64,000 bases of DNA from Escherichia coli (GTDB taxonomy: Bacteria > Pseudomonadota > Gammaproteobacteria > Enterobacterales > Enterobacteriaceae): assembly GCF_003991155.1 (NCBI RefSeq), contig NZ_CP031295.1; one strand, given 5' to 3'. Positions 37,501 through 43,500 of this stretch are shown piece after piece (within the stretch, counting starts at the first letter, position 1; each line of letters starts with the position of its first letter). Made by a program: the position numbers.

Positions 37501-40500
37501 GGAACACGGGCGCACGTATAAACGAAGCGCTGGCGCTGACGCGGGGAGATTTTTCTCTGGCGCCGCCATATCCGTTCGTACAGCTGGCCACGCTCAAACA
37601 ACGGACTGAAAAAGCGACCAGAACGGCAGGCCGTGTCCCTGCTGGCAGTCAGGTGCATCGCCTGGTTCCCCTGTCCGATACACAATACGTCAGCCAACTG
37701 CAGATGATGGTGGCCACGCTGAAAATCCCACTGGAGCGCAGAAACAAACGAACCGGAAGAATGGAGAAGGCGCGCATCTGGGGAATCACCGACCGCACAG
37801 TTCGCACCTGGCTGAATGAAGCTGTAGAGGCCGCTGCGGCCGACGGCGTGACGTTCTCTGTTCCGGTTACCCCACATACTTTCCGCCATTCCTACGCGAT
37901 GCATATGCTGTATGCTGGTATTCCGCTGAAGGTGCTGCAGAGCCTGATGGGGCACAAGTCGATTAGTTCGACAGAGGTGTACACGAAGGTGTTTGCGCTG
38001 GATGTGGCTGCACGGCACCGGGTGCAGTTTTCGATGCCTGAGTCCGATGCTGTCACAATGCTGAAAACAGACACGCATAAGTCACAAATCATAATTATGA
38101 ATTGTGATTTATTCTATAAAAGAAGAGACCACTGCAATATGTGATCTCTTGTATGCAAGGGTGCTTAAACAGTGTGAATTCACAAGTGTGATTTCATAAG
38201 TAATAACTTCTTGATTATTACGTTAGTGTTTTTAAGTATTGCTCAAGGGCTACTCTGACGATGGCACTTACATTTTTTGGATCTTTACCATTGCGTTTAT
38301 TCCTCAATGCCAGATCTTCTATTGTGACAAGCATGCTTTCACCAAGAGAGATTGTCGTCCGACATTGTTTTTCTGGTTCGGGTTTTTCCGGCGCGCCGTA
38401 TGGTTTATCCGCAAGGCGCTGAGCCAGAGCCTCTGCTTGTTCTACCGTAACTGCAGCTCTGTTTAATGCTTGCTGGCTGGGTTTCTTCACCATGGGCCAA
38501 ATACCTCATTCATTAAATGTTCAATTTCTGCTCTGGCTGCTGTATTGTTCGTTTCTACTACACCGGTGCCGTTGCTCATGCAATCGCGATAGACTTTTCT
38601 GAAACAAATAACTGAATCCAGGACTTGAATTGTTGGGAATTCTTCAAGATATTCAAGGAATTCTTTTCTCTCATTTCCCCTCAAAACCGGATTGGTTGTT
38701 GCCATACTTTGTAAACAATAAACCTTAAGTTCCGGGTTAAGGTTACGCATTGCGTCTATCTGTTGTTCTAGTTCTGTAAGAGTATCCAGATCTGGTTGAG
38801 AACACTGTAGTGGCGCAATTATTTGATGTGCGACAACTCCACTCGTTATGAATTCCTTTGAGTTTCTTCCTGCGACATCCACTATTACATCATCGAACTT
38901 TTCATTCAGAGCCTGTAGTGTTTGTGTCAGGTTATCAAATTTCTCAACAAGGGTTATTGCTGGTAACAGTCCTGCAGCTTCTCGTTCCGCATGATGTTTT
39001 GCGGCTGTTCGTTGTAGATCTCCGTTTAACAGGCAGACTTCCCTTCCTTTATTTGCGAGAGCAATAGCCAGGTTTGATGCAATGGTAGTTTTCCCTGAAC
39101 CACCTTTGTTCCCACCAACTACAGTAATCATTGCAACCTCATAAATGTGATGTGTGAAGTATGATGATATTTTGACACGGTAACCTGATGTGTCAACATG
39201 CATTCATATTTATGAAGTATGAAATATGTCATATGATGTAATATATATTACTTGTGTTTTGTGATTTCATAACTATGATAGTGCTCAAATTGAGTATTAC
39301 CTTGCAACCAGAAACAGTGATTTACTCAGATTGAGTATTTAAGGGGCTATAGATGAACGTATACTGCGATGATGGTTCAACAACAATCAAGTTGGCATGG
39401 AATGACAATGGGAAAATCTGTAAGTCGTTGTCGCAAAACTCATTTCGTCATGGATGGAAGGTTGACGGGTTAGGGATTCGCCAGACATTTAACTATGAAC
39501 TGGATGGTAAAAAATACACGTATGATGAAGTTAGCAACCAATCTATTCTTACGACTCATATTGAGTATCAATATACGGATGTTAACCTGTTAGCTGTGCA
39601 TCACGCTTTACTGAATAGTGGATTAGCGCCTCAGCCTGTATCATTGACTGTGACTTTGCCTATCAGTGAGTTCTACACGAAAGAGTGTCAAAAAAATGAA
39701 CTCAACATTCAGCGTAAAATTGAGAATTTAATGAGGCCGATTCGTCTTAATAAAGGCGATGTTTTCACCATTGAACACGTTGATGTGATGCCTGAATCAT
39801 TGCCAGCTGTGTTTTCTCGTCTGGTCATGGATAAAGTTGGTCAGTTCGAAAAATCGCTGGTAGTTGATATTGGCGGCACTACGCTTGATGTTGGTGTTAT
39901 CGTTGGTCAATTTGACTCTGTAAGTGCCATTCATGGTAATTCTGGCATTGGTGTGTCTTCAGTTACGAAAGCTGCAATGAGTGCATTGCGCATGGCATCC
40001 AGTGATACCAGTTTCCTCGTTGCAGATGAATTGATTAAACGTCGTAATGACCCGGACTTTGTTCGGCAGGTTATAAATGACGAAACAAAAACTGATCTGG
40101 TCCTTAATACCATTGAGGGGGCTATTGCCAGTCTGGGGGAGCAAGTAGTCAATGAGCTCGGTGATTTTCATCATGTGAATCGTGTTTATGTTGTCGGTGG
40201 TGGGGCCCCGTTGATCTATGATTCGATAAAAACGGCATGGCACCATCTTGGGCAAAAAGTAGTGATGATGGAGTCGCCACAGACAGCACTGGTTGAAGCT
40301 ATCGCGGCTTTCAAAGAGGAGTAATATTGTGGACGATGAACGGAAAAGGAAAAAATTCACACTTTATCTGCATCCGGAAAAAGCTGCAGACTTTCAAACT
40401 TTGGAAGCGATAGAGTCCGTTCCGCGTTCTGAGCGTGGTGAGCTGTTCCGGAATGCATTTATTTCTGGAATGGCGTTACACCAACTTGATCCTCGCCTGC

Positions 40501-43500
40501 CTGTATTGCTGACTGCCATTTTGAGCGAGGAGTTTTCAGCAGATCAGGTTGTAACCTTACTCAGTCAGACGACAGGATGGAAGCCTTCTCAGGCCGATAT
40601 CAGAGCTGTGTTGACTGAACTCGGTGCTTTGCAATCTGCTGAAAAAATGCCTCCTTCTGCTACTGATTCGGTGCAGGAGGCAATGAATGATGTGCGCCTT
40701 AAAATGCAAAAATTATTCTGATATATCAGAATGAAGCAATGGGGATCTCAGTCCATTGTGTTGTATACGAAGGCGAGAGCATTTCCCGTTTCATTTGCCA
40801 TTCAGGGGCGGTTCCTCGCCCCGCAAACCACACTTTCCCTTTTCCAGACTGGTTCAGTTCATCGAGTGTTTTCATTAACTTTTCGCTGTTTTTACGGGGC
40901 TGGATCTCATCAAATAATCCCGGCTGCGCTATACCCGATGGTGTGAAATCAGCCAGCATGACTCCTGCCTTCATATAGCGGTACCCTTCACGCCAGACAT
41001 GGTTTAACGCTCTGCATGCTGCGGCAATAATGTCCCGGCTGTCCTGTGTGGGTAATGGAAGCTTTTCCACAGCGGCATTGCTGTAACAGGGTTCTTTTAC
41101 TGCAAAGGGGGATGTCCGTACAAATGTCGTCACCTGCCGGCAATACTGACGCTCCCCACGTAGTTTCTCTGCGGCCCGCTCTGCATACTGAACAACAGCC
41201 TGGTGCATGGCATCTTTGTCTGTGATTCGTTCACCAAAACTGCGACTACAGACAATCTGCTGTTTTGCCGGTGGTGCTTCTTCCAGGGATATGCAGGACT
41301 CGCCGTTGAGTTCGCGTACCGTACGCTCAAGAATGACGCTGAAGTTTTTCCGGATGAATGCCGTGTTAGCCTGCGCCAGCTGCAGTGCTGTGTTAATACC
41401 CAGCGCATTCAGCTTTTCCGTCAGTCTGCGTCCTACTCCCCAGACCTCACCAACTGGCTGCAGCCCCAGTAGCTTCAAGATCCGATTACGGTTTTCTGCC
41501 TCCAGCGCGACCACACCGGAAAACTGTGGCCATTGCTTTGTTGCCCACTGTGCACTTTTAGCCAGCGTTTTTGTAGGCGCAATGCCCACCCCCATGGTGA
41601 GTCCTGTCCAGCTCTTTACCTGTTCCCTGAGCTGATGACCAAAAACCTCCGGAGAGATGCAATGATTTATCCCCCGCAAATCAATGAACATTTCATCAAT
41701 TGAGTAGGGCTCAACTGCGGGAGAAAGCGACTCCAGAACAGCCATGACCCGTTGGCTCATGCTGTGGTACAGCGCATAATTGCTGGAAAATACATGTATT
41801 TTCTTCTCCAGGCGCATCTGTCTCACCTGAAACCAGGGCTGCCCCATTCTGATGCCAAGGGCTTTTGCCTCCGGGCTGCGCGCGATCACACAGCCATCGT
41901 TATTGCTGAGTACGATGACCGGTTCGTTGCGAAGGTCCGGGCGGAAAACTTTTTCACATGAGGCGTAGAAACTGTTGATATCAGCCAGTGCAAACATCAG
42001 CGTAACTCCCGCGTCCTGTGTATCACGTGAGTGACAACACCAAAAATACAGATGTTTTCCGGATACAGTGTGCGGAATTCCGGGCTGTCTGAAACCGGCT
42101 CCAGTGCCGGGCGTGGGCGCAACAGCAGTCGTTTGACGGTGAACTCACCGTCGATCTCAGCGATAACGATGTCCCCGTGTTGTGGTTTCTCGGCCCTGTC
42201 CACTACCAGCAGATCACCATTCTGCACGCCAGCCTGGTTCATCGATTCACCGCTGGCGCGCAGAAAGAAGGTGGCTGCAGGTCTGCTGATGCAATAGCTG
42301 TTCAGATCCAGTTCCTGCTCAGCATAATCAGTGGCAGGCGAAGGAAAACCGGCCTGGCAACGATCGGCAAACAACGGTCGCACGTAACTGTCATCGCCTG
42401 AAGGGTCAGCCGGACGGTGATAAACGGTACTCATGCTGCAGGCAGCCAGCTGTCGTCCTGCCAGATTTCTTCCAGCAGAGACAGGATACGTTCTTTATCC
42501 TTGTCGTTGCGGGCTCCTGTGACAGATACAGACGGGGCGCTGCCCTGGTCAATACGCAGCCAGATTTCCGGGTAGTGTGGTTTCAGACGTTGTTCGATTT
42601 CATTCTGTAGCGCCTGAAGTGTGCCTGATTTGAGGTTTTTTGTGCTCTGGCGGTCGAAAAGAATTTCAATGCGGATCATGTTCTCATCTCCCTTTTTTAT
42701 TGCTGTATGTATATACAGTATTCTAATAACTGAATCCACACACAGTCAAATGTCATTATTGTGACTAAAAAACGCTCAATTCTCTGAGAGTGTGGCTGTA
42801 TGCCTGCTGTGGACTGCTGTGTCCAGCTTATCCACAGCATTTTGCGCACGGTTCTGTGAATAAAATACCTGGTTACCCAGGCCGTGCCGGCACGTTAACC
42901 GGGCTGCATCCGATGCAAGTGTGTCGCTGTCGCCGGCCTCCTCACCCGGTCACGTTTCGTCGTTCCTCCTCCACGCGCTGCGGCTTCGGGGCCGCACCTG
43001 CATTCGTATGCGGTCGCCCGGTTACAGGTGCGGCACGGCCTGATGGAGGCCGCATGTGAGAGGAGAATTCCCATGCCAAACTGGTGCTCGAATCGTATGC
43101 ATTTTTCTGGTGAACCGGCACAGATTGCTGAGATTAAACGACTGGCCAGCGGTGCCGTCACACCGCTTTATCGCCGCGCCACAAATGAAGGTATTCAGCT
43201 GTTTCTGGCCGGAAGTGCCGGACTTCTGCAGACCACTGAAGATGTGCAGTTTGAACCGTGCCCCGGACTGACGGATGCCGGACGTGGTGTTGTATCGCCG
43301 GAGAATATCGCGTTCACCCGCTGGCTGACACACCTGCAGAACGGTGTACTGCTGGATGAGCAAAACTGCCTGATGCTGCATGAACTCTGGCTGCAGAGTG
43401 GTACTGGCCAGCGTCGCTGGGAAGGATTACCGGATGAGGTCAGGGAAACCATCACCGTGCATTTCACCGCAAAAAGAGGTGACTGGTGTGGCTTCTGGAG

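What the first reader, a model, noticed from the sequence alone, without database searches (positions are those of the whole stretch)
38218..40721. Double partition locus: type Ib parAB divergent from type II parMR around a shared repeat region
A ParA ATPase with a small RHH protein (minus strand) and an actin-like ParM with ParR (plus strand) are transcribed divergently from a 220-bp AT-rich region containing short direct repeats. This matches the double par locus described for plasmid pB171. Two active segregation systems sharing centromere-like sequence is an uncommon arrangement.
Basis: partly seen in the sequence, partly recalled or inferred. Interest (0 to 1): 0.4.

Follow-up and report, generated by a model that had tools for sequence, protein, structure and literature searches.

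The report
Known pB171-type double plasmid partition locus
This is an intact copy of the well-studied pB171-type "double par" module, two different plasmid-segregation machines transcribed away from one shared control region; it is real but ordinary, and sits on about a thousand sequenced enterobacterial plasmids.

Summary
On the minus strand are parA (214 aa Walker-type ATPase, 38487-39131) and parB (91 aa ribbon-helix-helix protein, 38218-38493). On the plus strand are parM (323 aa actin-like ATPase, 39353-40324) and parR (130 aa, GTG start, 40329-40721). They diverge from a 221-bp, 68% A+T spacer.

The pB171 interpretation is supported:
- ParR is 125/129 identical to the solved pB171 ParR (PDB 2JD3).
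- The locus is 94-100% identical, segment by segment, to a plasmid whose ParR equals 2JD3.
- Published pUTI89 par primers match the window exactly.

The spacer (parC1) holds a phased array of 7-bp units (core TRTGAW), the presumed ParB sites. It also holds two exact 10-bp repeats (ATTGAGTATT) just upstream of parM, as reported for pB171 ParR.

These two arrays are the two densest TRTGAW clusters in the 64 kb.

A diverged Salmonella homologue keeps the same layout. The module occurs in about 1,000 of 72,556 PLSDB plasmids (IncF, IncK2/Z and IncI-gamma/K1 among those typed here), so it is not rare in practice.

Verdict: already known, low interest.

The parts
38082..38217 (.). parC2: second array of ParB-box 7-bp units (core TRTGAW or its complement WTCAYA), downstream of parB and outside the finding's coordinates
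   Evidence: There are 8 TRTGAW/WTCAYA hits at 38088-38198 against 0.31 expected. This is the second-densest 150-bp window in the 64 kb. TRF finds period 14 at 38171-38201. Indels among relatives are 7 or 14 bp. The diverged homologue L003 has perfect TATGAAG heptads at the same position. The left limit is set by the resD stop codon seen in relatives.
38123..38150 (-). Terminator-like hairpin inside parC2, the candidate parAB terminator (10-bp stem, then CUUUUAU)
   Evidence: Found by the consensus scan. The same stem appears in the RNA fold of 38217-38105, with z = -2.3. This is inferred, not shown.
38218..38493 (-). parB (par2): 91-aa ribbon-helix-helix centromere-binding protein and repressor
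   Evidence: ORF. Pfam RHH_1 matches residues 45-88 at 21.7 bits, above the 20.5 cut-off. The DNA is 100% identical to the pB171-like plasmid. The start codon overlaps the parA stop (ATGGTGA), read. The protein is 78% identical to the L003 homologue, with dN 0.17 and saturated dS.
38487..39131 (-). parA (par2): 214-aa type Ib Walker-type partition ATPase
   Evidence: ORF, with deviant Walker A KGGSGKT at residues 11-17. Pfam MipZ, AAA_31, CbiA and ParA match. PDB ParF (4dzz) aligns over residues 8-210 at E 3e-7. RefSeq copies use the same 214-aa start, and GAGG lies 6-9 nt upstream.
39132..39352 (.). parC1: shared 221-bp intergenic control and centromere region, 68% A+T
   Evidence: It is the densest TRTGAW window in the 64 kb, with 10 hits.
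39139..39280 (.). ParB-box heptad arrays within parC1. Strict hits are at 39146, 39153, 39160, 39203, 39211, 39218, 39232, 39260, 39266 and 39274, with degenerate in-phase units between them
   Evidence: Spacing between hits is 7 or 14 bp. TRF finds period 7 at 39211-39236. The window lacks one TATGAAG unit that all five compared relatives carry.
39169..39196 (-). Candidate parAB promoter P2: TTGACA, 16-nt spacer, TG-CAAAAT
   Evidence: It matches 10 of 12 consensus positions and lies between two heptad clusters. TTGAC is retained at the equivalent place in L003 (sequence). Consensus match only.
39252..39279 (+). Candidate parMR promoter P1: TTGTGT, 16-nt spacer, TATGAT. The -10 element overlaps the last ParB heptad
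   Evidence: Read from the sequence. It matches 8 of 12 positions, below the scan threshold. TTGTTT-16-TATGAT sits at the equivalent place in L003. Inferred.
39284..39298 (+). ParR box 1: CTCAAATTGAGTATT, containing the exact 10-mer ATTGAGTATT at 39289-39298
   Evidence: The ParR-box segment 39283-39352 has 1 variable column of 70 across six loci. L003 has CTCAAAGTGAGTA at the equivalent place.
39325..39339 (+). ParR box 2: CTCAGATTGAGTATT, containing the 10-mer at 39330-39339, 41 bp from box 1
   Evidence: L003 has CTCAATTTGAGTAT 39 bp from its first box.
39353..40324 (+). parM (par1): 323-aa actin-like segregation ATPase
   Evidence: Pfam StbA_N E 1.6e-64 plus PF21523 (Pfam name ParM_N, described as ParM C-terminal) E 4.3e-44. 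R1 ParM (PDB 1MWK) aligns at E 2.8e-76 over residues 2-295. Actin-fold motifs DDGS, DIGGTTLD and GGGA are present.
40329..40721 (+). parR (par1): 130-aa centromere-binding adaptor with a GTG start
   Evidence: It is 125/129 identical to PDB 2JD3. Pfam Plasmid_stab_B E 1.3e-29. RefSeq copies use the same coordinates. AGAGGAG lies upstream of the GTG.

Best explanation
The region 38082-40721 is a complete, apparently functional pB171-type double partition locus on an IncF-type conjugative multiresistance plasmid. It has two modules.

par2 is parC1-parA-parB-parC2, a type Ib system. ParB is a ribbon-helix-helix dimer. It is expected to coat the 7-bp TRTGAW arrays on both sides of the operon, forming the partition complex. 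That complex stimulates the ATPase of nucleoid-bound ParA-ATP. The plasmid then follows the receding ParA gradient and copies become evenly spaced over the nucleoid.

par1 is parC1-parM-parR, a type II system. ParR binds the two ATTGAGTATT boxes just upstream of parM. The ParR-DNA complex captures the ends of ParM-ATP filaments, and filament growth pushes sister plasmids apart.

Both operon promoters lie inside parC1. ParB can therefore repress parAB and, through heptads overlapping the parM -10 element, also parMR. ParR represses parMR.

Shown here: gene content, near-identity to pB171-type sequences, the repeat architecture and its conservation.

Inferred from published pB171, R1 and TP228 work: binding, repression and the segregation mechanics.
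For: - Domain assignments fit all four proteins.
- ParR is 125/129 identical to pB171 ParR, PDB 2JD3.
- The locus is 94-100% identical to a plasmid encoding the 2JD3 ParR.
- pUTI89 par and stbA primers match exactly.
- The two densest TRTGAW clusters in the 64 kb flank parAB exactly: 10 and 8 hits, against 3 for the next best window.
- Indels in the arrays among six loci are all 7 or 14 bp. TRF finds period 7 or 14.
- Two exact 10-mers lie upstream of parM, as published for pB171 ParR.
- The diverged homologue pRSE40 has proteins 49-79% identical and keeps both heptad arrays and both ParR boxes in place.
- dN is 0.15-0.19 with saturated dS for parA, parB and parM, and dN/dS is 0.20 for parR.
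- A promoter-like site lies between the heptad clusters.
- The parC1-parA-parB-parC2 architecture is used as the functional par2 unit in PMC4270457.
Against: - No experiment was done on this copy.
- The pB171 record itself (AB024946 / NC_002142) was not available, so the DNA comparison uses a proxy plasmid.
- The window's parC1 lacks one heptad that all five compared relatives have. This could slightly change binding or regulation.
- The NCBIfam ParA_partition equivalog scores 116.6 bits, below its 180 cut-off.
- The P1 promoter is only an 8/12 consensus match.
- My recollection of 17 and 18 hexamers in parC1 and parC2 could not be checked against the original paper. Strict motif counts here are 10 and 8.
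Confidence: 0.93

Rival explanations
1. Both cassettes are present, but only par2 (parAB) contributes materially to the stability of this plasmid. par1 (parMR) would be a weak or redundant passenger, kept because it is linked to and co-regulated with par2.
For: [quoted passage not shown] A dominant-system hierarchy is reported for other plasmids with two partition systems (PMC13245405). Close relatives carry IncFIA replicons. From my own knowledge, IncFIA replicons usually bring sopABC as well, which would add redundancy; this was not checked here.
Against: parM and parR are intact. parM is under strong purifying selection against the diverged homologue (dN 0.19 with saturated dS), and parR has dN/dS 0.20. 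The ParR boxes are the most conserved non-coding part of the locus, with 1 variable column of 70. The pairing of the two cassettes persists at 67% DNA identity.
Confidence: 0.25
2. The ATPase and RHH pair is not a partition system. It would be a MipZ-like division-site regulator, or a CopG-type transcription unit, as the automatic RefSeq names suggest.
For: RefSeq names copies 'division plane positioning ATPase MipZ' and 'CopG family transcriptional regulator'. The best Pfam hit by E-value is MipZ, but it covers only residues 2-52.
Against: The MipZ match covers only the P-loop. Full-length matches are to ParF, ParA and VirC1-type partition ATPases. The gene pair is flanked on both sides by repeat arrays, the hallmark of type Ib systems. 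The locus is the pB171/pUTI89 parAB, where a parB mutation is reported to cause plasmid loss.
Confidence: 0.02
3. The short repeats are a chance product of A+T-rich promoter DNA and are not protein-binding sites.
For: The region is 68% A+T. Individual 6-mers are short, and several two-copy repeat families are probably chance.
Against: Composition-adjusted expectation is about 1 hit against 10 observed in parC1, and 0.66 against 8 in parC2. Hits are in 7-bp phase. Indels between relatives are exact multiples of 7. The same heptad arrays occur at both positions in a homologue with 67% DNA identity.
Confidence: 0.01

Closest known systems
pB171 double par locus (par1 parMR plus par2 parAB, parC1 and parC2) of enteropathogenic E. 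coli B171 (Ebersbach and Gerdes 2001; Ringgaard et al. 2007)
   Same: Same four genes in the same divergent layout, with a shared spacer of about 220 bp. ParR is 97% identical to the solved pB171 ParR. Two 10-bp repeats lie upstream of parM. ParB-site arrays lie on both sides of parAB.
   Different: There are a few per cent of substitutions. The window has one 7-bp unit fewer in parC1 than the pB171-like proxy. The backbone differs: an IncF multiresistance plasmid with IS26 replacing ccdAB upstream of resD, compared with the proxy. The pB171 record itself could not be aligned.
pUTI89 parAB-stbAB (UTI89_P060-P063)
   Same: Published qRT-PCR primers for this locus match the window exactly at 38244, 38398 and 39454. 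A parB mutation there raises expression of parA and stbA and destabilises the plasmid, which fits ParB repressing both promoters.
   Different: The host plasmid is different. The full pUTI89 sequence was not compared here.
R1 parMRC (type II prototype)
   Same: ParM aligns with R1 ParM over residues 2-295 at E 2.8e-76. The centromere lies upstream of parM, and ParR is the adaptor.
   Different: R1 ParR needs a minimum of two 11-bp repeats (PMC9426499); from my own knowledge its centromere has ten of them. This locus has two 10-bp boxes. R1 has no linked Walker-type system.
TP228 parFGH and pSM19035 delta/omega (type Ib systems with RHH centromere-binding proteins)
   Same: All have a small Walker ATPase without an N-terminal DNA-binding domain plus an RHH protein. 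ParF (PDB 4dzz) aligns over the whole ParA. From my own knowledge, omega also binds arrays of 7-bp units in direct and inverted orientation. pSM19035 and pB171 both have repeat arrays upstream and downstream of the operon.
   Different: Protein similarity is low (E about 1e-7). The repeat sequences differ, and neither system is coupled to a type II cassette.
R27 double-partitioning modules
   Same: Two partition systems sit on one enterobacterial plasmid.
   Different: The gene families and organisation differ. No shared intergenic centromere of the pB171 kind is reported in what I read.

Membership tests
pB171-type double par locus | Divergent parAB (Walker-type) and parMR (actin-type) operons on either side of a cis region of about 200 bp (parC1) | tested here: met
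   ORFs and coordinates, domains, and a 221-bp spacer.
pB171-type double par locus | Proteins near-identical to those of pB171 | tested here: met
   ParR is 125/129 identical to PDB 2JD3. The other three genes are 99-100% identical in DNA to a plasmid encoding the 2JD3 ParR. ParA, ParB and ParM of pB171 itself were not available.
pB171-type double par locus | A second ParB-site array (parC2) downstream of parB | tested here: met
   8 TRTGAW hits at 38088-38198 against 0.31 expected, the second-densest cluster in the window. The parC1-parA-parB-parC2 layout is described in PMC4270457.
pB171-type double par locus | Two 10-bp direct repeats for ParR upstream of parM | tested here: met
   ATTGAGTATT at 39289 and 39330. 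The published description is in PMC9426499.
pB171-type double par locus | Each cassette stabilises a test plasmid; ParB and ParR bind and repress in parC1 | not testable with these tools
   This needs loss-rate assays, EMSA or footprinting, and promoter fusions.
Type Ib ParA/ParB(RHH)/parC partition systems | Small Walker-type ATPase with the deviant Walker A motif (KGGxxK[ST]) and no N-terminal DNA-binding domain | tested here: met
   214 aa with KGGSGKT at residues 11-17. The ParF alignment spans residues 8-210.
Type Ib ParA/ParB(RHH)/parC partition systems | Small ribbon-helix-helix centromere-binding protein encoded directly downstream of parA | tested here: met
   Pfam RHH_1 at 21.7 bits against a 20.5 cut-off, residues 45-88. 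The parB start overlaps the parA stop.
Type Ib ParA/ParB(RHH)/parC partition systems | Score above the cut-off of the NCBIfam ParA_partition equivalog (NF041546) | tested here: not met
   116.6 bits against a 180 cut-off, although the alignment is full-length (7-209 of 214). This protein lies outside that particular equivalog. That is not a requirement for type Ib membership.
Type II ParMRC partition systems | Actin-fold ParM ATPase with both ParM domains and the nucleotide-binding motifs | tested here: met
   Pfam StbA_N and PF21523. R1 ParM matches at E 2.8e-76. DDGS, DIGGTTLD and GGGA are read.
Type II ParMRC partition systems | ParR adaptor gene downstream of parM and a repeat centromere upstream of parM | tested here: met
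   Pfam Plasmid_stab_B E 1.3e-29, the 2JD3 match, and the repeats.

The most novel reading that the evidence does not exclude
The ParB-box arrays behave like minisatellites. Among six near-identical copies of the module on IncF, IncK2/Z and IncI-gamma/K1 backbones, every indel in parC1 and parC2 is exactly 7 or 14 bp, and this window carries one unit fewer in parC1 than the other five. Heptad copy number might be a selected, tunable parameter. It could set ParB occupancy, the strength of repression of the two promoters, or partition incompatibility between co-resident plasmids that share the module. I did not find this described in what I could read, but I could not read the primary pB171 papers.
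Probability: 0.12. Interest if true: 0.3.

Novelty: already known. Interest (0 to 1): 0.08.

Why it matters
It matters little as a discovery. The locus has been a textbook model for ParA-driven and ParM-driven plasmid segregation since 2001.

It is useful for annotation. RefSeq labels the ATPase 'MipZ' and the centromere-binding protein 'hypothetical' or 'CopG regulator', and the parC1 and parC2 centromeres are not annotated at all. The module helps keep a conjugative multiresistance plasmid stable without selection, and the same module is spread over several incompatibility groups.

Tried and rejected
- Fetching pB171 itself (NC_002142, AB024946) from the record collections failed. I used a plasmid whose ParR equals PDB 2JD3 as a proxy.
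- The primary papers (Ebersbach and Gerdes 2001, PMC64986) and the Sengupta and Austin review (PMC3191983) are not held. The two 2007 papers by Ringgaard and colleagues were not looked up directly. My recollection of 17 and 18 hexamers, and of the exact cross-regulation, therefore rests on memory plus secondary citations.
- dN/dS against the diverged homologue could not be computed for parA, parB and parM because synonymous sites are saturated. Only dN values, and the ratio for parR, are reported.
- NCBIfam gave no above-threshold family for any of the four proteins.
- The longer alternative starts were rejected: ParA from ATG 39203 (238 aa) and ParR from TTG 40293 (142 aa). They disagree with RefSeq copies, with PDB 2JD3 and with the Shine-Dalgarno positions. 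In addition, 39203 lies upstream of the candidate P2 promoter.
- Several two-copy repeat and inverted-repeat families (D3-D5, I1-I8) were treated as by-products of the heptad arrays, not as separate elements.
- Rfam found no RNA family inside the locus.

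
Full report
**1. What is in the sequence**

Between 38218 and 40721 there are four intact genes in two divergent pairs.

- On the minus strand, a 214-aa Walker-type ATPase (38487-39131) is followed by a 91-aa protein (38218-38493). The small protein's ATG overlaps the ATPase stop codon (ATGGTGA).
- On the plus strand, a 323-aa protein (39353-40324) is followed by a 130-aa protein that starts at the GTG at 40329 and ends at 40721.

Pfam assigns them as follows:

| Protein | Pfam result |
|---|---|
| ATPase | MipZ, AAA_31, CbiA and ParA P-loop families |
| 91-aa protein | RHH_1, 21.7 bits against a 20.5 cut-off |
| 323-aa protein | StbA_N (E 1.6e-64) and PF21523, the ParM C-terminal domain (E 4.3e-44) |
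| 130-aa protein | Plasmid_stab_B (E 1.3e-29) |

The ATPase carries the deviant Walker A motif KGGSGKT and has no N-terminal extension. It aligns end to end with ParF of TP228 (PDB 4dzz). The actin-like protein aligns with R1 ParM at E 2.8e-76 and has the DDGS, DIGGTTLD and GGGA motifs.

**2. Identity with the pB171 locus**

- The 130-aa protein is 125/129 identical to PDB 2JD3. PMC3074162 identifies that entry as pB171 ParR.
- A tblastn search with the 2JD3 sequence found 63 plasmids encoding it exactly apart from the GTG start codon.
- One of these, CP091396.1, has ccdAB-resD-parB-parA-parM-parR. It aligns with the window at parB 100%, parA 99.7%, parM 99.0%, parR 98.2%, parC1 94.3% and parC2 95.5%.
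- Primers published for the pUTI89 parAB/stbAB locus match the window exactly.
- The pB171 record itself was not in the collections, so the DNA comparison is by proxy.

**3. The cis elements**

The hexamer TRTGAW, counted on either strand, occurs 125 times in the 64 kb. The two densest 150-bp windows are the parA-parM spacer (10 hits) and the stretch just downstream of parB (8 hits). The next best window has 3 hits. Poisson probabilities are about 4e-11 and 2e-9 using the window-wide rate. Expectations from local base composition are only about 1 and 0.7 hits.

The hits are in 7-bp phase, for example 39146/39153/39160 and 39211/39218/39232. Tandem Repeats Finder reports period 7 in parC1 and period 14 in parC2. 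In parC2 the units alternate in orientation (TGTGAAT TCACAAG TGTGATT TCATAAG).

This reproduces the published par2 architecture parC1-parA-parB-parC2 (PMC4270457). [quoted passage not shown] The second array, about 38082-38217, lies outside the coordinates of the finding.

Next to parM, the spacer has two copies of CTCARATTGAGTATT, 41 bp apart. Their exact shared core is the 10-mer ATTGAGTATT. That 10-mer occurs 3 times in the window, against 0.07 expected. [quoted passage not shown]

**4. Promoters and terminator (inferred)**

- A promoter-like site on the minus strand (TTGACA, 16-nt spacer, TG-CAAAAT, 39196-39169) lies between two heptad clusters. It is the likely parAB promoter.
- A weaker plus-strand candidate (TTGTGT, 16-nt spacer, TATGAT, 39252-39279) has its -10 element inside a ParB heptad and lies just upstream of the ParR boxes.
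- This geometry fits repression of both operons by ParB and of parMR by ParR. It also fits the report that deleting parB in pUTI89 raises both parA and stbA expression.
- A 10-bp-stem hairpin followed by a U-run at 38150-38123 on the minus strand, in the middle of parC2, is a plausible parAB terminator.

**5. Comparative support**

Six near-identical copies were aligned: the window, L002 and L005-L008.

- Coding regions and the ParR-box segment vary at 1.3-2.5% of columns.
- The ParB-box arrays vary at 15-20% of columns.
- Every indel in the arrays is exactly 7 or 14 bp.
- The window lacks one TATGAAG unit in parC1 that the other five copies have.

A diverged homologue on Salmonella plasmid pRSE40 (L003) has 67.5% DNA identity. 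Protein identities are ParA 79%, ParB 78%, ParM 75% and ParR 49%. It keeps the whole design:

- near-perfect TATGAAG heptad arrays in the spacer and downstream of parB (TRF period 7, up to 7.7 copies);
- two CTCA-N3-TGAGTA boxes, 39 bp apart, upstream of parM.

Non-synonymous divergence is 0.15-0.19 with saturated synonymous sites for parA, parB and parM. dN/dS is 0.20 for parR. All four genes are therefore under purifying selection.

**6. How it most likely works**

The mechanics below are established for pB171, TP228, F and R1, and are inferred for this copy.

- par2: ParB dimers coat the heptad arrays of parC1 and parC2. This complex stimulates ATP hydrolysis by nucleoid-bound ParA. The plasmid then moves up the resulting ParA gradient and copies become evenly spaced.
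- par1: ParR bound to its two boxes caps growing ParM-ATP filaments, which push sister plasmids apart.

**7. Distribution and novelty**

- Megablast finds the region in 1,526 PLSDB records. Of these, 981 cover at least 80% of the query and 887 are at least 99% identical.
- It occurs on IncF, IncK2/Z and IncI-gamma/K1 backbones.
- A 2026 survey independently counted 971 PLSDB plasmids with a type-I RHH-ParB plus type-II combination, and lists it as previously reported (PMC13245405).

The arrangement is conceptually special, but it is well known and common in Enterobacteriaceae. I rate it as already known, with low interest. The only mildly new point is the strict 7-bp copy-number polymorphism of the ParB arrays, whose functional meaning is untested.

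**8. Context of the window**

| Window region | Content |
|---|---|
| about 1-36000 | IS26-, TnAs3- and ISVsa3-rich multiresistance mosaic (tet(M), cmlA1, floR, sul3) |
| 36092-36808 | IS26 transposase gene abutting the par region |
| 37290-38144 | resD-like integrase gene |
| 40726-42739 | umuDC/impCAB-like operon, just right of parR |
| further right | F-type leading region (ardA, ssb, psiBA, hok/sok) |
| right end | oriT-traM-traJ-traY-traA... |

Noticed in passing
window 37290-38144 (+), indel at about 38064: The resD-like site-specific integrase gene next to parC2 has a 1-bp deletion in an A-run (A5 to A4) compared with five relatives. The last 4 codons (NRHA-stop) are replaced by a 24-codon extension that reads across part of parC2. 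An identical plasmid copy lists no CDS here in the PLSDB table.
   Followed up: partly
window 39224/39225 (parC1); 38082, 38110 and 38184 (parC2) in the alignment: Copy number of the ParB-box heptads is polymorphic. Among six near-identical loci every indel is exactly 7 or 14 bp, and the window lacks one TATGAAG unit that all the others have.
   Followed up: partly
window 36092-36808 (-): An IS26 transposase gene lies about 480 bp upstream of resD. In the pB171-like plasmid CP091396.1, ccdA-ccdB occupy that position. IS26 therefore seems to have replaced or truncated the ccdAB side of the maintenance block, joining it to the resistance mosaic.
   Followed up: no
window 40726-42739 (-): A plasmid SOS-mutagenesis operon lies immediately after parR: a Y-family polymerase (423 aa), a UmuD-like protein (145 aa) and a DinI-like protein (listed as 102 aa from a GTG start, annotated as 82 aa in relatives). 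The same linkage is seen in many relatives and, with a repE gene in between, in the diverged pRSE40.
   Followed up: no
window 29412-29576 (-): Rfam reports a full-length match to 'Enterococcus sRNA 30' (RF02864, 194.9 bits) inside the resistance mosaic. It probably belongs to the Gram-positive-derived tet(M) segment now on an enterobacterial plasmid.
   Followed up: no
window 56376-56552 (+); 60540-60651 (both strands); 49004-49103 (-); 21353-21431 (+): Rfam matches: sok antitoxin RNA; traJ 5' UTR with FinP antisense RNA; AS-pc01 antisense RNA; and an integron attI / aminoglycoside leader. These are typical F-type leading and transfer-region RNAs plus a class 1 integron.
   Followed up: no
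window 38244-38417, compared with PMC9800825: The primer pair that the pUTI89 paper labels 'qRT-PCR for parA' (LZL001f/r) maps inside the 91-aa RHH gene (parB in pB171 nomenclature), not inside the ATPase gene. Gene naming in that study may differ from the pB171 convention.
   Followed up: partly
window about 53100-55060 (by correspondence with L004 13098-15056): A gene for a protein of about 650 aa, annotated 'ParB/RepB/Spo0J family partition protein', lies in the leading region between ssb and psiB. It has no adjacent ParA and is not part of the partition locus described here.
   Followed up: no
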